Shown piece by piece: positions 17,200 to 41,922 of a stretch of 64,000 bases of DNA. Numbering within the stretch: the first letter of the stretch is position 1; every line of letters begins with the position of its first letter. Origin of the DNA: an uncultured Acidobacteriota bacterium (GTDB lineage Bacteria > Acidobacteriota > Thermoanaerobaculia > Multivoradales > UBA5704); the NCBI GenBank assembly GCA_963756455.1, contig CAVWNC010000003.1, positions 1,537,430-1,601,429 of the forward strand. The letters are read 5' to 3'. The position numbers were made by a program, and so were the translations under genes. The notes under the pieces are model-generated. The model was given only the letters and a program-made list of their open reading frames with translations, was not told the DNA's origin and did no database searches.

Positions 17200-18177
17200 T
17201 CAACCCGTGAAAACAGAGGTCTGCGAGGGGATCGGCGCATGGAAAGCGAGCACGTCCTCCAACTCGATCTCCCAGCAGTTTTCGAGAGCAGCGGGGATGG
17301 AGCGGATGATCACGCTCGGGATATCGCCGGGAATCTCCAGGTCATAGCTGTCGGGGTACTGCCCCTCCAGTCTGTTCGTGAGCCGGATCTTGATCGACCC
17401 CAAGGCGGGGCGCCTCTTGGGCGGGTGGAAATCGAGACGGAGGCCGATTGAGGTGAGATCGGCCCGAGTGAGATAGAGGCCATGATGCAGAAAGGTCGAA
17501 GAAGGGACCTGCTCGATGACGATCTGATCCCGGAAGCCTGGCTTATCCTCACCGAGCAGGTGAAGCAGGGTGCGCCGATCCAGCGGAGTTCTACAGACCA
17601 CGAAGCGGAGATGCTGTGACAGTGGCAACCGCCCAGGTACGACGACCTCAGCCATTCGGGCGTCCTGAATGGACTCTTTGTCCATGACATCGGGAACGGA
17701 GTCGTGGTAAACCCACTCGAAAGGAATCTGATCGAAAAGGCGAATGTCTCTACCGATCTGGCGTCTTCTCGACAGCATGCCTGGAGAGAACCCGACCTCA
17801 GGAAGCGTGAGGACGGACAAGGCATCGAAGACCAGCATGATCGGGACCGACATCTGATACCTGTCCCGATAGGGATCATCACGGCACTTTATGCCCTCGG
17901 TTTTGAAATGAAAATTGTTTTTGGGCCTGAAGTAGAGGCGGACAGAGCCGTGAGGCTGCGGGTTATTGTGTAAGGCTCCCTGATTTGCGACGTCGTGCTT
18001 GATGGTGCCCAGTCGGCTCCTGCAGATGAGGTGGCCCGAGCGGAGAATCTCGACCGCTGTCGTTACATGGGCTGCGTGGAAAAGATATTTCGGCCAGAGG
18101 CTATTACGGGAGAAGAGGCCTGACCACCCGGACCACTCGGCGATATGCCGTGCGGCCCGCTCCGGTGTCAGGCCCAC
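17200..18177 (-). CDS. darT: DarT-like ssDNA ADP-ribosyltransferase (DUF4433) with a ~120-aa C-terminal extension
   Basis: It aligns block by block with Thermus DarT: YLFHAAHV (cf. IYHITHI), VRLYFRPK (cf. VPFYFCPR), and DARMAEVVVPGRLPLSQHLRFVVC (cf. KQAEFLVYKAFPWALIEEIAVY, including the catalytic Glu). Its start overlaps the 3' end of the macrodomain gene by 10 nt. Local G+C is reduced. Confidence 0.65.
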   Translation of the reverse strand: MGLTPERAARHIAEWSGWSGLFSRNSLWPKYLFHAAHVTTAVEILRSGHLICRSRLGTIKHDVANQGALHNNPQPHGSVRLYFRPKNNFHFKTEGIKCRDDPYRDRYQMSVPIMLVFDALSVLTLPEVGFSPGMLSRRRQIGRDIRLFDQIPFEWVYHDSVPDVMDKESIQDARMAEVVVPGRLPLSQHLRFVVCRTPLDRRTLLHLLGEDKPGFRDQIVIEQVPSSTFLHHGLYLTRADLTSIGLRLDFHPPKRRPALGSIKIRLTNRLEGQYPDSYDLEIPGDIPSVIIRSIPAALENCWEIELEDVLAFHAPIPSQTSVFTG

Positions 18178-19061
18178 AACTTTCCCTGGACCTGCTCGCG
18201 CCTGGCCTCCACGTGAAGGGAGGGGCGGCGCTCACGGAAAAACAAGCCATGGCCTGGCTGGTAGGCATTCCCACGCAAATGTTGAATCTTGGCAGCCTGC
18301 ACATAAGGAAGGCGAGCCAGGACGCTCAACAGATAGTCGTTGTGCCGACGGGAGAGCTCTCCGTCCAACTGATCCGCTGTCAGTAGTCCCACCTGAAGAG
18401 CAGACCATGCGGTCTCGAGCTCTTCGTGGAGAACCTTCTCCTTTTCACCGGACTCGTGGATCTCCAGATCGCCATTGTCGAGGATCGCGGCGGTGAAAAG
18501 CGAGTCGCGGTCCAGGGTTTCGAAGGAAGGCTCAGCAGTCAGCGTGCGGATGTCGTCCAGGAAATGCTCATAGTCGACCGCCGGCGGGATCTTCTCCAAG
18601 TGCTCGGGTACGAAGTCCGTTGCCACGTACCGCTCATGAACGTAGACCTGAATAGGCAGATCTTGGAGGTAGGACTCGATCAGCGGCTTGACGTCCGCCC
18701 AGTCAAGATTGCCATTGCCACAGCCGAGCGGCGGGAAGGAAATCGAGGTGATCCCGAGATTTTCATAGCTCGCCACGAACTTCTCGAGCCCTTCCCTCAC
18801 ATAGGGGAGGGTCGAGGGAAGGCGCCATGTGGTTTTGGTCGGGAAGTTGAGGACCCACTTGTCCGGTCCCCTCCATAGCTGGAGCGTCCCGGTCCGCAGC
18901 TCTCCCCGGTCGCAGAGCCACTTGTACTCCCCGAACATTTCGGGATACCGCTCCTTGAAGCTTTTCGCGATCCCCTTCCCCATGACTCCGACGGTGTTGA
19001 CCGCATTGACCAGCGTCTGGGCGGGTGAGGCGAAGAGGTCGGTTTGAAGGTAGACGATCAT
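18168..19061 (-). CDS. darG: DarG-type (TARG1-like) macrodomain protein with a C-terminal domain; putative DarG antitoxin
   Basis: The N-terminal motifs TDLFASPAQTLVNAVNTVGVMGKGIAKSFKERYPEMF and ...ISFPPLGCGNGNLDW match the TARG1/DarG macrodomain. A ~150-aa C-terminal region is unassigned. Confidence 0.75.
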   Translation of the reverse strand: MIVYLQTDLFASPAQTLVNAVNTVGVMGKGIAKSFKERYPEMFGEYKWLCDRGELRTGTLQLWRGPDKWVLNFPTKTTWRLPSTLPYVREGLEKFVASYENLGITSISFPPLGCGNGNLDWADVKPLIESYLQDLPIQVYVHERYVATDFVPEHLEKIPPAVDYEHFLDDIRTLTAEPSFETLDRDSLFTAAILDNGDLEIHESGEKEKVLHEELETAWSALQVGLLTADQLDGELSRRHNDYLLSVLARLPYVQAAKIQHLRGNAYQPGHGLFFRERRPSLHVEARREQVQGKLWA

Positions 19062-33564: not shown

Positions 33565-34836
33565 ATGACGAACGTCACTGCCCTGCCCCTCCGCATCGTC
33601 TTCTGCCATGCCTCGCAGCCCGACGGCCTGGACAAGGCTCCGCCTTCTTGGGGTGCCATCACGGCGTCGGAGCTCGAGCTGACACTCTTCGGTGATCCCG
33701 CGAAGGATCGTTCCCGGCGCTGGGAGCCGCTCGATCTCGCCGCCGCCATCCCGCTCAAGGACGACATCGGTTTCCGGACCTTTACGGCTCGGTCACGTCG
33801 GCCGGATGGGAGCCTCCAGCCCGCGGCGGAATTCTTCGACGAGGTGCTGCACACGATTCTGGTCGTGTTCGTGGACGATCTCCTGCAGGGGGATTTGGAC
33901 CTGGTCGACTGGCTGACGGACTGCCTGCGGCACTGCGACGCTTCCTCAGGACGGCACCGCTTCGTGTCCGTGGTACCCGGTGACGAGACGAGGAGACGAT
34001 GTCTCGCTAAGCCCGGTCTCGGAACCCACAATGCGGTCGACTTCTCTCAGCTGGGCGAAGAGGCGGAGCGCCTGGACTGGCTCTCTCTTCAGGTGCTGGA
34101 CTGGGCGATGCAGGCGGCGGCTAGAGGGGCCGGCGAGGGCAAACAGTGGAAAGTGCGATTCTTCGTGTCCCATGCCAAGCGGGACGGAATCTCGCTGGCC
34201 CAGAGCCTGCGGGACCGTGTGAAGGAGATCCACTGGCTGGAGAGCTTCTACGACGCCTGGAGCCTGGACCCGAGCCGGCCGTGGATCGAACAGTTGGAAG
34301 AGGCGGTCGCCTCCTCGGTGGTGGTGGCGCTGCGCACGGACAACTATGACCACCGGCCCTGGTGCCAGGCGGAGGTTCTCTGGGCCGAGCAGCACGGCTC
34401 TCCCCTGATTCTGGTGGATGCGCGGAGCGGCCTCGTCCATGCGGCGAGCAATCTCCCCTATGAGAGCGCTCCCTGTGTGCGGATTCCGGACGGCAATCTC
34501 GTCCGCATCCTGCATGCGGCCTTGCGCGTCGCCCTGCGGGCGCGGATCTTCGTTCGCCGAGCCCAGGAGCTCAAAAACCTGGGACTTCTGAACGGGACGG
34601 TCGAGCTCATCCCGGTCACCCCGGGGCTTCGCGCGATCGTCGGCGCTTGCAGTAAGTTGGAACGTGCAGCGAAGGATGCGGCGAAGAATCCACCGCCCTA
34701 TTCGGTCTGCTACCCCGATCCGGGGCTCCGGGACGTGATCAGCCGGGCGGCGCAGGCGCTGGCCGCGAGTGCCTCGGTTCCGATCCAGATCGTGACTCCA
34801 CGAACCCTGCTTTCCGCTCCGGGGGTGACGGTATGA
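33565..34836 (+). CDS. TIR-domain protein (central TIR with a WC..E catalytic motif) with N-terminal TIR-like and C-terminal unknown regions
   Basis: The central KVRFFVSHAKRDG...LEEAVASSVVVALRTDNYDHRPWCQAEVLWA matches the bacterial TIR fold, including the conserved Glu. The N-terminal ~175 aa (LRIVFCHASQPDG..., ILVVFVDDLL) may be a second, degenerate TIR-like domain. Its stop overlaps the start of the next gene (ATGA). Confidence 0.65.
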   Translation: MTNVTALPLRIVFCHASQPDGLDKAPPSWGAITASELELTLFGDPAKDRSRRWEPLDLAAAIPLKDDIGFRTFTARSRRPDGSLQPAAEFFDEVLHTILVVFVDDLLQGDLDLVDWLTDCLRHCDASSGRHRFVSVVPGDETRRRCLAKPGLGTHNAVDFSQLGEEAERLDWLSLQVLDWAMQAAARGAGEGKQWKVRFFVSHAKRDGISLAQSLRDRVKEIHWLESFYDAWSLDPSRPWIEQLEEAVASSVVVALRTDNYDHRPWCQAEVLWAEQHGSPLILVDARSGLVHAASNLPYESAPCVRIPDGNLVRILHAALRVALRARIFVRRAQELKNLGLLNGTVELIPVTPGLRAIVGACSKLERAAKDAAKNPPPYSVCYPDPGLRDVISRAAQALAASASVPIQIVTPRTLLSAPGVTV

Positions 34837-35762
34837 GCGTCCACGCCCAGCCGCTCGCCGGGCTCCGCGTGGGGATCTCGATCTCTGAGAGCGACGATCT
34901 GGAGGCCCGGGGTTTCACGCGTTCCGCGATGAACCGTCTGACGGTCCGCTTGACCGACGCGTTGCTGGCTGCCGGGGCGACTGTGGTGTTCGGCCACGAC
35001 TGGCGAGAGGACGGCATTATGGATGCCGTCTGCCGCTCCGCCCTTTGGTCTTTCGGAGTTCCGGAGCCGGACGCCCGACCCCCGGTTCTCAACCTGCTCC
35101 CCTGGCCGGATGAAACCCGCGTGGACAGCGAAATTCGCCTCCGTTTGCACCAGGTCATCGACATCCGCTCCGCGGGCCTGCCCGAGAGCCTGCTCAGGGA
35201 GGCTCCAAAGGCAGCGGAGGATCGGGATCTCCGGCGTTACTTGCGTTCTCGCGGCCTCACTCACCTTCGGCGTAGGTTGACGGAGGAGTGTCAGGCACGC
35301 ATTTGCCTGGGCGGTCGAGAGAGCGGATACCAGGGCCGCTATCCCGGGGTCCTGGAGGAGGCGCTGCTCGCGTTCGAGGCACGCCAACCGGTGTATCTGG
35401 TCGGCCTGCTCGGTGGGGTTGCCGAGCACCTGGGCCGCAGCATCCTTGCTCTGCCGAATCCGCGCGCGGGACAGGAGAGGGTCCCTCCCCCGGCAATGGG
35501 GCCTGGAAAGTCTTTGGAAGATCTCTACAGGGACCATCGCGACGGGGACCGCCCCTCTCGTGATCCTTTGGACGACACGAGCTTCGAGTTGGAGCGCGCG
35601 TGGGAGGCTGCAAGAAACGTCGGCCGGGAAAGACTCGGAGACAATCGGCTGGATTACGACGAGGGCCGCCGGTTGGTGGAGAGCCGGTCCGAGGAGGAGG
35701 TGATCATCCTCGTGCTGAGGGGGTTACGGCGGAAGGTTGACCCAGAGAGGAGGCGGCGGTGA
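34833..35762 (+). CDS. SLOG/LOG-like Rossmann-domain protein (putative nucleotide-signal sensor) with a charged C-terminal tail
   Basis: The order of motifs mirrors the LOG/SLOG family: LRVGISISESDD, then TVVFGHDW.EDGIMDAV, then ICLGGRESGYQGRYPGVLEEALLA....PVYLVGLLGG (cf. the LOG PGGyGTleE motif). The assignment is by pattern only. Confidence 0.5.
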   Translation: MSVHAQPLAGLRVGISISESDDLEARGFTRSAMNRLTVRLTDALLAAGATVVFGHDWREDGIMDAVCRSALWSFGVPEPDARPPVLNLLPWPDETRVDSEIRLRLHQVIDIRSAGLPESLLREAPKAAEDRDLRRYLRSRGLTHLRRRLTEECQARICLGGRESGYQGRYPGVLEEALLAFEARQPVYLVGLLGGVAEHLGRSILALPNPRAGQERVPPPAMGPGKSLEDLYRDHRDGDRPSRDPLDDTSFELERAWEAARNVGRERLGDNRLDYDEGRRLVESRSEEEVIILVLRGLRRKVDPERRRR

Positions 35763-35821
35763 GCTCTCTGCCTGGACCTCCGAACCGGGTCAGCTCGGGA
35801 GCGTGGCGGATACGTCTCGCT

Positions 35822-36177
35822 GTCCCGTGGGTCGGCCTCCGAAGCTCGCCTCAGGGGTTGCCGGCGCCGTTGTGGCCTCTTCGCGGGTCGTGCCGCCTGG
35901 CTCGCGGGTCGAAAAACGCCGTTCACGGACCGAAAAACTCGCGAAACGGGCGTTTCGAGGCGCTCGCGCGCCGATATGGCGCCTTACGGGCCAGTTCGCG
36001 GGTTTCACGTGTCGATTTTGGCGTTTTTCGGCCCGGTAAGATCGCGAATCGAGCGATTCGCGCCCTGATTCGACTTGTCGTCGCGTTTTTCGGGACGTGC
36101 GTCGCGTTTTTCGACTCGTCGAGGGCATTTTTCGAGGTTCACGACGGGTTTCCATGCCATATTGGCAGGTGAGGGAG
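35822..36177. repeat. Intergenic repeat, copy B, interrupted by a ~239-bp A/T-containing palindrome-rich insertion (35908..36146)
   Basis: 35822..35907 and 36147..36177 align with copy A (14825..14942). The intervening segment carries CGAAAAAC/GTTTTTCG motifs and perfect hairpins (cgaaacgggcgtttcg; gcgccgatatggcgc; cgcgaatcgagcgattcgcg). Confidence 0.7.
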
Positions 36178-36335
36178 GCCCGTCAAGGGCCATCGTTGAG
36201 GAGGACATACATCGGGTCCTGTTCCCGGATTCGCCTCAGCCCCGGATCTTGGAAGAGCTAAGGGAGGGCGTACGGCAGCACGCAAAAAACCGCCCTACAG
36301 CCGTTGATAGCTCTTCTACACCCAAATCTCCGAAG

Positions 36336-37671: not shown

Positions 37672-37715
37672 AGGCGGGAGGGCCGGGAGGCCCTCCCTTC
37701 CTTTCTCTCAGCCCC

Positions 37716-38078
37716 TCAACCTTCCCGATGCACGAGAGTCGGCGAGAAGGCCGGCAGGCAGACGGCGATGTATTCGGCGCCTTCCGGGTCGGGGGTGCTG
37801 TAGCGCACCCACTCGCCGCGGCCGACGACGATCGCCTCTCCGGCTTTGACGTCGTAGGTCTTCTCGCGGGTCTCGACTCGGAGCGCGCCGCGGAGGACGA
37901 CCGTGTATTCGTCGAATTCCGGGGTCTGCGCGGGTTCCTCCCAGCCGCCGGGGCTCGTCATCCGGGCGATGCTCGTCGATTGGGTTCCCGAATTCACATT
38001 GCCGACGAATTCCTCGATCAGCTTGGGCTTGTTGCCCGCGGGAGCGATCCGGGTCGGCGCGGTCAGGTGCTTCACCAT
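37716..38078 (-). CDS. Cupin-domain protein
   Basis: The cupin beta-barrel motifs (G.....H......Y.V.G) are present. The start is at MVKHLT, with an RBS GAAAGGAA that lies inside the upstream 27-bp repeat. Confidence 0.6.
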   Translation of the reverse strand: MVKHLTAPTRIAPAGNKPKLIEEFVGNVNSGTQSTSIARMTSPGGWEEPAQTPEFDEYTVVLRGALRVETREKTYDVKAGEAIVVGRGEWVRYSTPDPEGAEYIAVCLPAFSPTLVHREG

Positions 38079-38086
38079 AGGCTCAA

Positions 38087-38113
38087 TTCCTTTCTCGTCA
38101 AGCCTCGACAGGG
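38087..38113. repeat. 27-bp direct repeat, copy 1 (ttcctttctcgtcaagcctcgacaggg), immediately upstream of the cupin gene
   Basis: It is identical to 38768..38794. Together the two copies bracket the higB-higA cassette. Confidence 0.8.
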
Positions 38114-38125
38114 CGCGAGCTGATC

Positions 38126-38446
38126 CTACCCTGCTCGGTGAGCGGGGATCTTCTCCAACTCGTGGCGTAGTCGTTTCTCGGCATGCCACAGATCGAAGCG
38201 CTGTTGCATGCGAAGCCAGAGCCCCGGCCCGTTGCCGCAGAACTTGCCCAGACGGACGGCCATCTCGGGACTGATGGCCGACTTTCCGGCCAGGACCCTA
38301 TGCAAGGTCTGGCGGGTGACACGAAGCTGGCGTGCCGCTTCGCTCACGGAAAGGTTCAAGGCCGGCAACACGTCCTCCCGCAGAAGCTCTCCCGGATGAG
38401 TGGGTGGGCGGCGAGGTTTCTCAGGCGGTGTCGTTTCTCGGGCCAT
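38126..38446 (-). CDS. higA: HigA-family antitoxin (XRE-type HTH)
   Basis: PTHPGELLREDVL..L.LSVSEAARQLRVTRQTLHRVLAGKSAISPEMAVRLGKFCGNGPGLWLRMQQRFDLW is the canonical HigA signature. The ATG lies 11 nt downstream of the higB stop in the reconstructed frame. Confidence 0.8.
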   Translation of the reverse strand: MARETTPPEKPRRPPTHPGELLREDVLPALNLSVSEAARQLRVTRQTLHRVLAGKSAISPEMAVRLGKFCGNGPGLWLRMQQRFDLWHAEKRLRHELEKIPAHRAG

Positions 38447-38457
38447 ACTCGTCCCCG

Positions 38458-38696
38458 CTAGTGGTATTGCACCAAATCTACCTGCACGGCGCCGTCCTGC
38501 GCCCATTGTACCGCTGCGGCTTGCCCCGCAAAGAATGAAAGTCGAAGCCCGGCACGTTGAGATCCAGCAAACCGGCTGCTTCATCCAGGGCGTCGAGCCT
38601 ACGGATTGCGCGAGCTCGTAGATCCTGCGGTACTTTCCGGCTGGAGCCCGTTTCGAACAACTCCTTGAGCCCTTTGTGCCGGAAGCTCTGGATCAC
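38458..38696 (-). pseudogene. higB: higB (RelE/ParE-superfamily toxin) disrupted by a frameshifting indel
   Basis: The N-terminus MIQSFRHKGLKELFETGSSRKVP...HSLRGKPQR is typical HigB. The track frame then ends in nonsense (YNGRRTAPCR*). The +2 frame continues as ...QWAQDGAVQVDLVQYH* with the family's C-terminal DGDA..VD..DYH-like motif, ending 11 nt before the higA ATG. The total length is ~12 aa short, suggesting a small deletion. Confidence 0.55.
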
Positions 38697-38767
38697 ATGG
38701 AGGAGTGTAACTAGATACGCTACAGTCTGTCAAAGTGGCTCGTTCCCTCCCTGACCATGAACTCACG

Positions 38768-38794
38768 TTCCTTTCTCGTCAAGCCTCGACAGGG
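38768..38794. repeat. 27-bp direct repeat, copy 2, overlapping the stop codon and last codons of the RND permease gene
   Basis: A perfect copy of 38087..38113. On the minus strand it is followed by a degenerate duplicate of the cupin start (ATGGTCAGGGAGGGAACG, MVREGT..., versus ATGGTGAAGCACCTGACC, MVKHLT). Confidence 0.8.
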
Positions 38795-41700
38795 GTTTTC
38801 GGCGGCTCGGGTCGCGGCGCCCGGCGGAGGAGCCGGTCGCCCAGGCGGCCGAAGATTCGCGCCTCCACGAGATCGTCGAAGAGGCTGTAGGCGACCGGGG
38901 TACCGATCAGGGTGAGCAGCAGGGCGAGCGTCTGGCCGCCGATGATCACCGAGCCGATGGCCCGGTTGGTGGCGGCGCCGGTGCCGCTCGAGACGACGAG
39001 CGGAATCATACCGGCGACGAACGCCATGGTGGTCATGAGGATCGGCCGCAACCGATCGCGGTTGGCCTCGCGGATCGCCTCCGCCCGCGTAAGGCCCTGG
39101 GCGCGCAGGTTGATCGTGTGGTCGATCTGCAGAATGCTGTTCTTTTTGACGATACCGAAAAGGACGAGCACGCCGAGCGCCGAGAAAATGTTGAGCGACT
39201 GGTTGAGCACGATGAGCGAGAAGAGGGCGAACGGCACCGTCATGGGGAGAGCGAGGAGGATCGTCGCCGGGTGGAGCCAGCTCTCGAACTGGGCGGCGAG
39301 GATGAGATACATGAAGACGATCGAGAGCAGGAAGGCGAGGCCGAAGTTTTTGGCCGCCTTGCCCTGCTCGCGCGAGCGGCCGGTGAAGCCCGAGGAGTAG
39401 GCGGGCGGCATCTTCAGCTCCTGGGCGCTTTTCGCCAGCTTGTCGAGCACGGCCTGCGAGGAGAAGCCGGGGAGCATGTTGGCGTAGATCAACACCTGCC
39501 GCTGGCGGGAGATGCGGTTGATGAGGGACGGCCCGGTGCCGGGTTTGAGCTGGACGACGTCTCTGAGCGCCACCGAGCCGCGGACCCCGGAGGGCACCTC
39601 GGCCTGGGCGATGCCCTGCGGGTCGCGGCGGTAGCGCTCGTCGGCCCGCACGTGCACCTCGTACTGCTCGCCGGCCTCCATATAAGAGGTCACCTCCTGG
39701 CCGCCGACTAAAACGTTGACCGTCGAGGCGACGTCCTGCACGTGGACCCCGAGATCGGCCGCCTTGGCGCGGTCGACGCGGACCCCGAGCTCCGGCTGGC
39801 CGACGATCAGGTTCGAGTCGGCGTCGACGACACCCGGCACGGCCTTCAGATCGACGAGGAGCTTCTGCGAGTACTTGGCGAGCTGATCCAAATCCGGGCC
39901 GCCGACCCAGAACTGGATCTCGGCGTTGTTGCCGCCGCCGATCGCCGAGACCGGCGCCACCTGGGTGCGCAGGTTGAGCCGCGCGTACTCGGGCAGCACC
40001 TGCTTGCGGATGCGGTCCATGACGGCGAACTGGTCGACCTTGCGCTTATTGACCGGGACGAGCTTGACATAGACCGAAGCCAGGTTCTGGGTGAGCTGCG
40101 GATCGTTGGCCACGGTCAAGACGGTGGTCTCGACCTCGTGGAACTGGCGGACGCGCTTGGCGATCGACTCGGCGACCGTCTGCGTCGCCTCGAGGCTCGA
40201 ACCCTCGGGGGTCCTCAAGGTGACCTCGAACTGCGATTCGTCGTCCTCCGGCAGGAAGTTCTTGTTCACCCGGCTGAAGAGCGGACCGGTCGAGACGAAG
40301 ACGGCCAAAAGCGCCAGGACGACGATCCAGCGGTGGGCCATGGAGCCGTCGAGAAGCCAGAGATAGCCACGCTCGATGACGGCATAGAAACCTTTCTGCC
40401 GGGTGCTCGCATGGCCCCCGCTTGCGCTGGGGGTGCCGGCATCCTGGGGTTTCAACCAGCGCGAGCACATCATCGGGGTCAAGGTGAAGGAGACGAGGAG
40501 CGACACCGCGATGGCGAAGGCCATGGTGACGCCGAAGGAATTCATGAAGCGGCCGACGATGCCGCCCATGAAGGCGACGGGGAGGAAGACGGCGATGAGC
40601 GAGAGAGACGTTGCGAGGACGGCGAGCGCGATTTCCCCGGTTCCTTCAGCCGCCGCCTCGCTCGGCGAGAGCTTCTTTTCTTCTAAGAACCGGAAGACGT
40701 TTTCGAGCACGACGACGGCGTCGTCGATGACGATGCCGACGACCAGGGCGAGCGCCAGGAGGGTGATGACGTTGAGTGTGAAACCCATGTACTGCATCGC
40801 CGCGAACGTCGCGATGAGCGAGGTGGGAATGGCGACCGCGGCGATGATCGTGAGCCTGAAGCGACGGAGGAAGAGGAGCACCGTGGCGGCGGCCAGGAGC
40901 GAGCCTAAGACGAGGTGCTCCTTGACGGCGTCGACGGCGGCCGTGATGTATTCCGACTGGTCGCGGGCGATGTCCATCTTCCAGCCCTTGGGCAGCTGGG
41001 AGCGCAGCTGGTTGATCCGTTCTTTCAAGCGATCGATGACCTCGATTGTGTTGGTGCCGGACTGTTTTCGCACCTGGAGGATGACCGCCGGCTTGCCGTC
41101 GACGCTCGCGAGCGTCTCGGCTTCGGCCTGGCCGTCCTCCACCCGGGCGACATCTCTAAGCTTCACCGGATAGCCGTTCTTTTGGGCGACGGGAATGTCG
41201 CCGAACTCGGCCGGCGAGCCCACCCGGCCGTAGGTGCGGAGCGTCAGGTCGCGGATGCCCTGCTCGACCTGGCCGCCGGGGATCTGCACGTTCTGGGTCT
41301 GGAGGGCGCGGACGACGTCGGCCACGGTCAGGCCGACGCCCGAGAGCTTGGTCGAGTCGGTGATGACGTTGATCTGCCGCGGCCGACCGCCGACGAGCTT
41401 CGCCTGGCCGACGCCGTTGATCGATTCGATCTGCCGTTTCAAGCTCTTGTCGGCGAATTCCGTGATGTCGCGGATGGGCGCCGGGCCGGAGAGGGCGATC
41501 AGGAGGATGGGCTGGGCGTCGGGGTCGATCTTTTCGATGATCGGAGGATCGGCTTCCTTGGGGAGCTGGGCGAGGACGGTGTTGATCCGGTCGCGCACCT
41601 CTTGGGAGGCGATGTCGCCGTTCTTTTCGAGATCGAACGAGGCGACGACGACCGAGGTGCCCTCGGACGAGGTCGAGATGAGCTGGTCCATGCCGGAGAC

Positions 41701-41922
41701 GGTGTTGACCGCTTCCTCGATCTTGTCGGTGATCTCGGTCTCCATCTCCTCCGGGGAGGCGCCGACGAGGCGGGTGGTGATGGTGATCGTCGGCAGGTCG
41801 ACCTTGGGGAAACGATCGACCCCCAGCTTGACGTAGGCGAAGAGTCCGACGACGACCAGAGAGAGGATGAGGACGGTCGCGAAGACCGGCCTCCGGATGC
41901 AGAGCTCCGCCAGGGATTTCAT
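38779..41922 (-). CDS. RND efflux transporter permease (AcrB/HAE1 family)
   Basis: 1047 aa with 12-TM RND topology and conserved AcrB-type periplasmic loops. The start overlaps the MFP gene stop. Confidence 0.9.
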   Translation of the reverse strand: MKSLAELCIRRPVFATVLILSLVVVGLFAYVKLGVDRFPKVDLPTITITTRLVGASPEEMETEITDKIEEAVNTVSGMDQLISTSSEGTSVVVASFDLEKNGDIASQEVRDRINTVLAQLPKEADPPIIEKIDPDAQPILLIALSGPAPIRDITEFADKSLKRQIESINGVGQAKLVGGRPRQINVITDSTKLSGVGLTVADVVRALQTQNVQIPGGQVEQGIRDLTLRTYGRVGSPAEFGDIPVAQKNGYPVKLRDVARVEDGQAEAETLASVDGKPAVILQVRKQSGTNTIEVIDRLKERINQLRSQLPKGWKMDIARDQSEYITAAVDAVKEHLVLGSLLAAATVLLFLRRFRLTIIAAVAIPTSLIATFAAMQYMGFTLNVITLLALALVVGIVIDDAVVVLENVFRFLEEKKLSPSEAAAEGTGEIALAVLATSLSLIAVFLPVAFMGGIVGRFMNSFGVTMAFAIAVSLLVSFTLTPMMCSRWLKPQDAGTPSASGGHASTRQKGFYAVIERGYLWLLDGSMAHRWIVVLALLAVFVSTGPLFSRVNKNFLPEDDESQFEVTLRTPEGSSLEATQTVAESIAKRVRQFHEVETTVLTVANDPQLTQNLASVYVKLVPVNKRKVDQFAVMDRIRKQVLPEYARLNLRTQVAPVSAIGGGNNAEIQFWVGGPDLDQLAKYSQKLLVDLKAVPGVVDADSNLIVGQPELGVRVDRAKAADLGVHVQDVASTVNVLVGGQEVTSYMEAGEQYEVHVRADERYRRDPQGIAQAEVPSGVRGSVALRDVVQLKPGTGPSLINRISRQRQVLIYANMLPGFSSQAVLDKLAKSAQELKMPPAYSSGFTGRSREQGKAAKNFGLAFLLSIVFMYLILAAQFESWLHPATILLALPMTVPFALFSLIVLNQSLNIFSALGVLVLFGIVKKNSILQIDHTINLRAQGLTRAEAIREANRDRLRPILMTTMAFVAGMIPLVVSSGTGAATNRAIGSVIIGGQTLALLLTLIGTPVAYSLFDDLVEARIFGRLGDRLLRRAPRPEPPKTPVEA

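What the first reader, a model, noticed from the sequence alone, without database searches (positions are those of the whole stretch)
38087..38794. higB-higA cassette bracketed by perfect 27-bp direct repeats that also duplicate the cupin gene start
The 27-mer ttcctttctcgtcaagcctcgacaggg occurs at 38087..38113, just upstream of the cupin start and containing its RBS. It occurs again at 38768..38794, overlapping the stop and last codons of the RND permease gene. The ~650 bp between the copies holds only higB and higA and has lower G+C. Downstream of copy 2 (minus strand) there is a decayed copy of the cupin start (ATGGTCAGGGAG, MVREGT…*) matching the real start ATGGTGAAGCAC (MVKHLT). This looks like an integrated TA cassette flanked by att-like or target-duplication repeats, inserted between the efflux operon and the cupin gene. 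It is a clean example of a footprint-bearing mobile TA module.
Basis: seen in the sequence. Interest (0 to 1): 0.55.

Follow-up and report, generated by a model that had tools for sequence, protein, structure and literature searches.

The report
Toxin-antitoxin cassette inserted with target duplication
A 654-bp foreign higB-higA "addiction" gene pair was inserted between an efflux-pump gene and a cupin gene in this lineage only, duplicating about 45 bp of the target, and its toxin gene has since been broken; it is a clean but fairly ordinary example of how such gene pairs move and decay.

Summary
The 27-mer occurs exactly twice in the window (38087-38113 and 38768-38794), against 0 expected by chance. 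The copies bracket a 654-bp segment that holds only a promoter, higB and higA.

Five related metagenomic lineages (cupin 94-95% nt identity) and a more distant one (87%) have the RND stop codon directly next to the cupin gene. Those five carry one copy of the same 26/27-nt block.

The duplication is longer than 27 bp. About 14-18 further bases, including a pseudo cupin ATG, follow copy 2 in diverged form. That extension resembles the spacer allele of a different lineage more than the window's own, which suggests recombination at the conserved block with a donor-borne copy of the site.

The insert has no recombinase, no terminal inverted repeats and no room for an attC site. Its G+C and GC3 are lower than the host's.

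One new point: higB is a pseudogene here. It has a 37-bp internal deletion, while a near-identical strain keeps it intact.

The closest known phenomenon is "insertion with long target duplication", described for restriction-modification systems. Integrase-less att-flanked islets are the alternative. I rate it a new member of a known kind, of moderate interest.

The parts
38779..41922 (-). RND (ACR_tran-type) efflux permease, last gene of an OEP-MFP-RND operon. Its last 16 nt (partial codon, P-V-E-A, stop) lie inside repeat copy 2.
   Evidence: ORF. The orthologue in L011 hits PF00873. The upstream MFP and OEP genes hit Pfam HlyD/OEP.
38768..38794 (.). Direct repeat copy 2 (attL-like, proximal). 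Read on the minus strand it is CCCTGTCGAGGCTTGACGAGAAAGGAA: the RND 3' end plus the former cupin ribosome-binding site.
   Evidence: It is identical to the single copy in the empty sites.
38750..38767 (-). Diverged extension of the duplication. It has a spacer ACGTGAGTTC-type sequence and a pseudo cupin start (ATG at 38758-38756, mini-ORF MVREGTSHFDRL*). It most resembles the spacer alleles of L110 and L011.
   Evidence: The blastn alignment of L011 7862-8009 runs through it. Anchored-similarity tests are, and the allele alignment.
38704..38733 (-). higBA promoter-like site TTGACA-18-TACACT. It marks the left edge of the DNA shared with higBA cassettes found in other genomic contexts.
   Evidence: Promoter scan. 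Homology with L017 and L019 starts at 38733.
38458..38696 (-). higB pseudogene. A 37-bp internal deletion (junction at about 38507/38508) shifts the frame, so the ORF 38478-38696 gives 72 aa that lack the C-terminal third.
   Evidence: Alignment with the intact 91-aa gene of L001. Pfam coverage is 2-62/91 here and 2-91/91 in L001.
38126..38446 (-). higA antitoxin / HTH autorepressor, 106 aa, intact.
   Evidence: Pfam HTH_3/HTH_31. Thousands of 106-aa homologues, many named HigA family antitoxin by their sources.
38114..38125 (-). 12-nt right junction (GATCAGCTCGCG) between the higA stop and repeat copy 1. It is not shared with cassettes found elsewhere.
   Evidence: Alignment; blastn limits.
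38087..38113 (.). Direct repeat copy 1 (attR-like, distal). It carries the working ribosome-binding site of the cupin gene and a now non-coding copy of the RND 3' end.
37716..38078 (-). Cupin_2 gene (120 aa), the ancestral downstream neighbour of the RND gene.
   Evidence: Translation. Pfam PF07883. Synteny in L011 and L111.

Best explanation
Shown:
- A foreign 654-bp higBA operon (own sigma-70-like promoter, toxin gene first, then HTH antitoxin) was inserted into the 19-nt gap between the RND stop codon and the cupin start. This happened only in the lineage of this genome.
- About 41-45 bp of the target is now present on both sides. The first 27 bp (RND 3' end plus cupin ribosome-binding site) is still perfect. 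The rest (spacer plus the first cupin codons) is diverged.
- The insert encodes no recombinase and has no transposon-like ends.

Inferred mechanism: the incoming DNA already carried a copy of the same RND-cupin junction next to the higBA promoter. That copy came from a related lineage with a different spacer allele. It recombined with the resident site inside the 26/27-bp block that is invariant among these lineages. Either host homologous recombination or a recombinase acting in trans could have done this. The product is a hybrid attL/attR-like pair. This places it in the class 'insertion with long target duplication' described for restriction-modification modules.

Later history: a 37-bp deletion killed higB. 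HigA is left as an orphan antitoxin/repressor, so the module can no longer kill cells that lose it. The cupin gene keeps its ribosome-binding site from copy 1 and must now be transcribed by read-through from the RND operon or the higBA promoter.
For: - Repeat: exact, two copies only, 0 expected by chance.
- Empty sites: L011, L110, L111, L112 and L113 each have one copy of the 26/27-nt block. Cupin nt identity to the window is 94-95%, and the lineages relate in a star-like way. The 87% outgroup L013 is also unoccupied.
- Synteny: the window and L011 align on both sides of the insert at 90-92% identity. L011 7966-8009 (44 nt) aligns to both sides of the insert.
- Extension after copy 2: matches the empty-site continuation with a null fraction of 5e-5 to 1e-4. 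Its spacer (ACGTGAGTTC) is closest to L110 (CGTGAAATC). The spacer of copy 1 (ATTGAGCCT) is closest to L112 (ATTGAACC), scoring 16 of 18.
- Foreign composition: G+C 0.61 against 0.686; GC3 0.70-0.72 against 0.84-0.91.
- Unit that moves: cassettes with 85-96% identical HigA sit in unrelated contexts. They share DNA only from the -35 box to the higA stop.
- No mobility features: no terminal inverted repeats, and no integrase among the neighbouring or low-GC3 ORFs tested.
- Toxin decay: intact 91-aa HigB in the near-identical strain L001, and a 37-bp deletion here.
- Precedent: RM modules inserted with 46-47-bp unique target duplications that overlap 3' gene ends, with no mobility genes (PMC2853133).
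Against: - No donor molecule, circular form or recombinase was seen.
- The allele-type argument rests on 18 nt. The scores are 13 of 18 against L110 and L011 and 11 of 18 against copy 1, so it is suggestive only.
- The contrast between the perfect 27-mer and the diverged tail could partly reflect faster evolution of the spacer. The spacer also differs among the empty-site lineages, while the 26-nt block is invariant in all of them.
- 27 bp is near the lower limit for RecA-dependent recombination (my own knowledge).
- The rest of the source genome could not be searched for integrases, for further copies of the 27-mer or for other higBA copies.
Confidence: 0.6

Rival explanations
1. The insert is a remnant of a larger integrative element, or a cis-mobilizable (CIME-like) islet. 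A tyrosine-recombinase element integrated at the 3' end of the RND gene, with a 27-bp identity core. Everything except the addictive higBA pair was later deleted, or the pair is moved in trans by an integrase encoded elsewhere.
For: The repeat overlaps the 3' end of a gene and restores it, as att sites typically do. Related higBA modules sit alone between long repeats of tRNA 3' ends. L049 has a 50-nt perfect repeat of the tRNA-Leu(CAA) 3' half around a 934-bp insert. L080 has a 31-nt repeat of a tRNA-like 3' end. An addiction module would be expected to be the last part of an island to be lost (inference).
Against: There is no integrase in the insert or in the flanking genes. Only 34 nt and 12 nt separate the operon from the repeats. 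That leaves no room for arm-type sites and would need two very tidy deletions. The 27-mer has no 11-6-11 or 13-8-13 dyad symmetry expected of a simple core site (read directly from the sequence), and it has no significant fold.
Confidence: 0.25
2. The duplication arose in situ. A staggered double-strand break about 45 nt wide was filled in and a promoter-to-stop higBA fragment was ligated in, for example by end-joining repair. The non-functional tail of copy 2 then decayed neutrally.
For: The insert is almost exactly a bare operon. It has no mobility features. Duplication lengths in other loci are long and variable (31, 50-86, about 90 and 130 nt), which fits a repair process that is not site-specific.
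Against: The roughly 27 positions inside the two 27-mers that are unconstrained in one copy or the other show 0 changes. The adjacent 18 nt show about 7 changes plus an indel. By my rough estimate P is about 0.02-0.03 under uniform neutral decay. The copy-2 tail is nearer to other lineages' alleles than to the window's own copy.
Confidence: 0.12
3. The cassette is ancestral to the whole group and was lost from the relatives by recombination between the two repeats. That would leave exactly the single-copy 'empty' site.
For: Loss through direct repeats leaves no scar, so empty sites alone cannot tell 'never occupied' from 'excised' (inference). The lineages are star-like.
Against: It needs at least three or four independent losses, plus loss in the 87% outgroup, against one gain. 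The cassette has foreign G+C and GC3. Its closest relatives are in unrelated contexts.
Confidence: 0.06
4. The repeat is a chance match or an assembly artefact.
For: None beyond the general risk in metagenome-derived assemblies.
Against: 100 shuffles gave 0 matches. The left junction was seen in one independent sample, and the whole layout with the same spacing in another. The single-copy homologue in five relatives explains both copies.
Confidence: 0.01

Closest known systems
Insertion with long target duplication of restriction-modification gene complexes (Nobusato et al. 2000, Gene 259:99; Furuta, Abe and Kobayashi 2010, NAR, PMC2853133)
   Same: A small selfish or addiction-type gene unit is inserted with no transposase or integrase. 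The direct repeats are tens of bp long, unique in the genome, and align with a single copy in the empty-site genome. The repeat overlaps the 3' end of the upstream gene (their H. influenzae cases: 46 bp, overlapping 15 bp or 2 bp of a gene end). The insert's G+C differs from the host's.
   Different: The cargo is a type II toxin-antitoxin pair whose toxin is an RNase family member, not a DNA-cutting RM system. Their proposed link to DNA breakage by the cargo therefore cannot apply. Only 27 bp is perfect, below their 30-bp cut-off. The rest is diverged and appears to be of another allele type. I found no paper in the held library that reports this insertion mode for TA modules.
att-flanked integrative islets without integrase: cis-mobilizable elements (CIMEs) of streptococcal ICEs, and decayed genomic islands at tRNA or gene 3' ends (own knowledge)
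   Same: Direct repeats duplicate the 3' end of a gene and the target gene is restored. There is no recombination module between the repeats. Related higBA islets at tRNA 3' ends (L049, L080) look just like this.
   Different: No cognate integrase or parent element is known. There is almost no non-cargo DNA between the repeats and the operon. The core lacks recognisable recombinase-site symmetry.
higBA gene cassettes of chromosomal integrons such as the Vibrio superintegron (own knowledge)
   Same: A promoter-bearing higBA pair acts as a compact mobile cassette that stabilises its neighbourhood.
   Different: There is no attC. Only 12 nt follow the higA stop before the repeat, and the ends have no inverted-repeat structure. 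No integron integrase or cassette array is present. The flanking repeat derives from the target, not from the cassette.
Decay of chromosomal TA systems, toxin first (ccdO157 and hok/sok in E. coli; reviewed in PMC2654758)
   Same: The toxin gene is inactivated while the antitoxin stays intact. The state is polymorphic among very close strains (L001 intact, the window deleted).
   Different: A different TA family and a different host group. Here the lesion is a single 37-bp deletion.

Membership tests
HigBA type II toxin-antitoxin system | Toxin of the RelE/HigB-like family | tested here: met
   PF05015 matches at E 9e-8, but only over profile positions 2-62 of 91 in the window. The allele in L001 covers 2-91. 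The gene is therefore a member by descent but truncated here.
HigBA type II toxin-antitoxin system | HTH (Xre-type) antitoxin encoded immediately downstream of the toxin (reversed gene order) | tested here: met
   HigA hits HTH_3/HTH_31. The order is higB then higA, 11 nt apart in the intact allele. Homologues are named HigA family antitoxin by their sources.
HigBA type II toxin-antitoxin system | Functional toxicity and neutralisation | not testable with these tools
   This needs expression tests. The 37-bp frameshifting deletion predicts loss of toxicity (inference).
Insertion with long target duplication (Furuta et al. 2010 criteria) | The repeats flanking the insert align with a single-copy sequence in a related genome that lacks the insert | tested here: met
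   L011 7966-8009 aligns to both window 38793-38750 and 38113-38070. Four more empty alleles were found.
Insertion with long target duplication (Furuta et al. 2010 criteria) | Target duplication longer than 30 bp | tested here: inconclusive
   27 bp is perfect. Counting the diverged tail gives 41-45 bp, and the tail's homology is statistically supported.
Insertion with long target duplication (Furuta et al. 2010 criteria) | Insert under 20 kb with no mobility genes; the repeat is unique in the genome | tested here: met
   The insert is 654 bp and holds higB and higA only. The repeat has 2 copies in 64 kb and none in unrelated loci. The whole genome could not be searched.
Insertion with long target duplication (Furuta et al. 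2010 criteria) | Cargo is a restriction-modification system | tested here: not met
   The cargo is a TA pair. It works like this class but falls outside the set for which the class was described.
Tyrosine-recombinase integrative element (att sites) | Integrase gene within or next to the element | tested here: not met
   None is in the insert. The flanking genes are RND, cupin, an unassigned ORF and DUF72. Other low-GC3 ORFs of the window are DarT, Macro, TIR and SLOG. The remaining ORFs of the window and the rest of the genome were not searched.
Tyrosine-recombinase integrative element (att sites) | Identical core in attL and attR at the 3' end of a gene or tRNA | tested here: met
   A 27-bp identical block overlaps the last 16 nt of the RND gene.
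Insertion sequence / MITE / transposon | Terminal inverted repeats and a short (2-14 bp) target duplication | tested here: not met
   No inverted repeat pairs the two ends of the insert. The duplication is at least 27 bp.
Integron gene cassette | attC recombination site downstream of the cargo | tested here: not met
   Only 12 nt lie between the higA stop and the target-derived repeat, and no imperfect palindrome is present.

The most novel reading that the evidence does not exclude
higBA modules of this very abundant soil-bacterial family may be minimal mobile units without their own recombinase. They would carry a copy of their last target site and spread among related genomes by looping out and back in through long target-derived repeats. 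That is the life cycle Kobayashi's group proposed for RM systems, here applied to RNase-type TA pairs. The DR-bracketed higBA islets at tRNA-Leu (L049), at a tRNA-like 3' end (L080), at a gene 3' end (L094) and next to a gene-fragment copy (L038) would be further instances.
Probability: 0.2. Interest if true: 0.6.

Novelty: new member of a known kind. Interest (0 to 1): 0.36.

Why it matters
How chromosomal toxin-antitoxin pairs get into intergenic sites without any visible mobile element is still poorly documented. This locus provides several things together:
- the filled site and several empty sites;
- a long target duplication with a hybrid signature;
- the exact unit that moves (the -35 box to the stop codon);
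- the next step of decay (toxin deleted, antitoxin kept) as a polymorphism between near-identical strains.

If the same footprint proves common for TA pairs, it would extend the 'insertion with long target duplication' mode from RM systems to addiction modules in general. It would also point to a host-encoded or homology-driven route rather than one that depends on DNA cutting by the cargo.

On its own, this is a well-resolved example rather than a surprise.

Tried and rejected
1. **Coordinate error.** My first cupin coordinates (37719-38079) were one base off, so the wrong frame was used. The Pfam result for that protein, the genome-contig scan and one protein search were wasted. Their results are ignored. 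I corrected this.
2. **Metagenome scan.** An exact 24-mer from the repeat gave 0 hits in metagenome contigs. The empty sites came instead from cupin homologues and look-ups of the contigs that encode them.
3. **Viral and plasmid collections.** They hold only distant HigA relatives: at most 62% aa identity and about 70% nt identity. No close donor element was found.
4. **RNA structure in the 27-mer.** None was found (z = -0.43), so a conserved hairpin or terminator does not explain why the block is invariant.
5. **Transposon, integron and dif readings.** There are no terminal inverted repeats and no room for an attC. By inspection the 27-mer has no dif/lox-like dyad symmetry. I rejected the IS/MITE, integron and Xer/dif-module readings.
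6. **Survey of other higBA loci.** I checked 65 other usable higBA loci for flanking direct repeats. Four convincing cases were found. Mock cassettes shifted by 1.6 kb also gave repeats in 5 of 60 trials, probably because these neighbourhoods are island-rich. I therefore make no claim of enrichment. L027 and L037 involve hairpin or multi-copy repeats, and L039 and L077 look like chance.
7. **Third GAGAAAGGAA copy.** A third copy of this 10-mer after the cupin stop is not conserved in L011. I treat it as chance.
8. **Literature.** Searches for TA modules inserted with long target duplications found only the RM work.

Full report
**1. The observation**

The 27-mer TTCCTTTCTCGTCAAGCCTCGACAGGG is at 38087-38113 and 38768-38794. 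These are the only two matches in the window even with three mismatches allowed, and 100 shuffles gave none.

All genes in this stretch are on the minus strand. In reading order they are:
- an outer-membrane factor gene, a membrane-fusion protein gene and an RND permease gene (38779-41922);
- repeat copy 2;
- higB, then higA;
- repeat copy 1;
- a Cupin_2 gene (37716-38078).

On the minus strand the repeat reads CCCTGTCGAGGCTTGACGAGAAAGGAA. Its first 16 nt are the end of the RND gene (P-V-E-A-stop). Its last 8 nt, GAAAGGAA, are the cupin ribosome-binding site.

The 654 bp between the copies has G+C 0.61, against 0.686 for the window. Its GC3 is 0.70-0.72, against 0.84 for the cupin gene and 0.91 for the RND gene.

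**2. The structure is real**

- A 1222-bp contig from another sequencing run (L001) is 99.5% identical over RND end, 27-mer, higB and higA.
- A contig from a third run has the same gene layout, with the same 701-nt distance from RND end to cupin start.

**3. higB is a pseudogene here**

L001 encodes a 91-aa HigB that covers the Pfam HigB profile from position 2 to 91. The window lacks 37 bp (AGTCTGCACGTCAATGGACCTTGGTGTATCACCTTTG), with the junction at about 38507/38508. This shifts the frame, and the remaining 72-aa ORF matches only profile positions 2-62.

higA (106 aa, HTH_3/HTH_31) is intact and identical in both strains. The toxin has therefore been lost first, and the state is polymorphic between near-identical strains. 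Reviews describe the same pattern of decay for other chromosomal TA systems (PMC2654758).

**4. The empty site exists**

I found cupin homologues and fetched the contigs that encode them.
- L011 (95% aa identity) has TetR, OEP, MFP, RND and cupin, then a 171-aa ORF and DUF72. That is the same order as the window. RND stop and cupin ATG are 19 nt apart, and there is one copy of the 27-mer.
- L110, L111, L112 and L113 (cupin nt identity 94-95%) have the same arrangement, with one copy of the 26-nt block CCCTGTCGAGGCTTGACGAGAAAGGA.
- L012-L014 (88% aa identity) also have the RND gene directly next to the cupin gene, but with a diverged junction.

The window and L011 align at 90-92% identity over 8 kb on both sides of the insert. 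L011 7966-8009 aligns to both sides.

The lineages are about equally distant from one another. With the outgroup also unoccupied, one gain in the window/L001 lineage is the economical reading.

**5. How long is the duplication?**

After copy 2 the sequence continues ACGTGAGTTCATGGTCAGG. After the single copy in the relatives it continues with an 8-9-nt spacer and ATGGTGAAG (ATGGTGAGG in L011).

Anchored similarity of the copy-2 tail to the L011 and L110 continuations (13 of 18 after a gap penalty) is reached by only 5e-5 to 1e-4 of all window positions. Similarity to the window's own copy-1 continuation scores 10-11 over 18-22 nt, with a null fraction of 0.0025 to 0.03 depending on the scoring.

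The duplicated target is therefore about 41-45 bp: 27 perfect plus a diverged tail that ends around cupin codon 3.

**6. The tail looks like a different allele**

The 26-nt block is invariant in all lineages, but the spacer is hypervariable (the base after the shared 26-nt block counts as spacer here):

| Source | Spacer |
|---|---|
| L011 | ACTGAAATT |
| L110 | CGTGAAATC |
| L111, L113 | CTTGCAATC |
| L112 | ATTGAACC |
| Window copy 1 | ATTGAGCCT |
| Window copy 2 | ACGTGAGTTC |

Copy 1 is nearest to L112 (16 of 18). Copy 2 is nearest to L110 and L011, and shares CGTGA..TC with L110.

A plain duplication followed by uniform decay fits poorly. By my rough estimate it would produce about 3-4 changes among the roughly 27 positions of the two 27-mers that are unconstrained in one copy or the other. 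None is seen, while the adjacent 18 nt differ at about 7 positions plus an indel.

The simplest account is as follows. The DNA that brought higBA already carried a junction copy from another lineage. The crossover with the resident site then fell inside the conserved block. This step is inferred and rests on few bases.

**7. What moves**

HigA relatives with 85-96% identity occur in unrelated neighbourhoods (L016-L020). DNA similarity to the window starts at the -35 box of a TTGACA-18-TACACT promoter (38733) and stops at the higA stop codon.

The 34 nt to the left and the 12 nt to the right are specific to this locus. The insert has no terminal inverted repeats, no room for an attC site and no recombinase gene.

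The neighbouring ORFs and the low-GC3 ORFs I checked in the window are not recombinases. I did not check every ORF in the window.

**8. Other loci**

Among 65 further usable higBA loci (of 85 fetched) that I examined, four have the module between long target-derived direct repeats:
- **L049:** a 50-nt perfect repeat (86 nt imperfect) of the tRNA-Leu(CAA) 3' half around a 934-bp insert.
- **L080:** a 31-nt repeat of a tRNA-like 3' end, downstream of a sub-threshold group I intron match.
- **L094:** about 75-90 nt of the 3' end of a protein gene, around higBA plus an HNH-containing gene pair.
- **L038:** a 130-nt, 91.5% identical copy of an internal piece of the downstream DUF2867-like gene.

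None has an integrase between the repeats. A mock control also produced repeats in 5 of 60 trials, so I claim recurrence, not enrichment.

The tRNA cases look like classical att sites. That keeps the 'integrase-less islet' reading alive for the window as well.

**9. Comparison with known systems**

The nearest described phenomenon is 'insertion with long target duplication' of restriction-modification units (PMC2853133; PMC3874152). Its features are:
- unique 46-47-bp and longer repeats that align with a single copy in the empty genome;
- overlap of the repeat with a gene's 3' end;
- no mobility genes;
- deviant G+C in the insert.

The window meets those features, with three exceptions. The cargo is a TA pair. 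Only 27 bp is perfect. The rest appears to be of another allele type.

The authors linked the mechanism to DNA breakage by the cargo. That cannot hold for an RNase-family toxin.

The integron-cassette, IS/MITE and Xer/dif-module readings each fail a defining feature.

**10. Verdict**

It is a well-resolved, modestly interesting example of TA mobility and decay: a new member of a known kind. The recombination route is the uncertain part.

Noticed in passing
window 38458-38696; L001 612-887: The higB toxin gene is polymorphic between near-identical strains. It is intact (91 aa) in L001 and carries a 37-bp frameshifting deletion in the window. A contig from ERR11718634 has the same shortened spacing as the window.
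   Followed up: yes
window 38079-38086 and 38759-38767; L011 7993-8000; L110-L113: The 8-9-nt spacer between the cupin ribosome-binding site and its ATG differs in almost every lineage. The 26 nt just upstream are invariant and the flanking coding DNA is 94-98% identical. The reason for this local hypervariability is unexplained.
   Followed up: partly
window 17200-19061 (-): Two adjacent genes with lower GC3 (0.72-0.76) hit the DarT (ssDNA ADP-ribosyltransferase) and Macro domain families. This is a DarTG-like toxin-antitoxin or defence pair.
   Followed up: partly
window 33565-35762 (+) and 35790-36300: A TIR-domain gene and a SLOG-cluster2 gene (a defence-like pair, GC3 0.77-0.80) lie next to a low-G+C stretch (0.565-0.605). 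Synteny with L011 ends at about window 36200, so this is a second variable region, 1.4 kb from the cupin gene.
   Followed up: partly
L049 276-1345: A 934-bp insert that holds only higBA lies between 50-nt perfect repeats of the 3' half of tRNA-Leu(CAA). No integrase is present on the 1.8-kb contig.
   Followed up: partly
L094 2437-4473: A roughly 1.9-kb insert (higBA, a 138-aa ORF and an HNH endonuclease gene) is bracketed by an imperfect duplication of about 75-90 nt of the 3' end of the upstream gene.
   Followed up: partly
L038 2446-3613: higBA is preceded by a 130-nt, 91.5% identical copy of an internal fragment of the DUF2867-like gene that starts 15 nt after higA. The first 26 nt are perfect, which is the same 'perfect block then diverged tail' pattern as in the window.
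   Followed up: partly
L080 65-430 and 1099-1129: A sub-threshold group I intron match (33.9 bits against a cut-off of 50) is followed by a tRNA-like 3' end. That 3' end is repeated (31 nt, 2 mismatches) on the far side of a distant higBA pair.
   Followed up: no
L015 7301-8384; L111 4782-5409: Other TA modules sit beside the same conserved genes in relatives. A PIN-domain pair lies directly upstream of the 79%-identical cupin in L015. A PIN/MazE-type pair lies after DUF72 in L111. This neighbourhood seems to collect TA modules.
   Followed up: no
window 37698-37707: A third copy of the 10-mer GAGAAAGGAA (0.11 expected in the window) lies just after the cupin stop codon. It is not conserved in L011, so it is probably chance.
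   Followed up: yes
window 38074-38101 (-): Repeat copy 1 plus the cupin start forms a promoter-like match (TTGACG-16-TATGGT, 9 of 12). It overlaps the start codon and is probably fortuitous.
   Followed up: no
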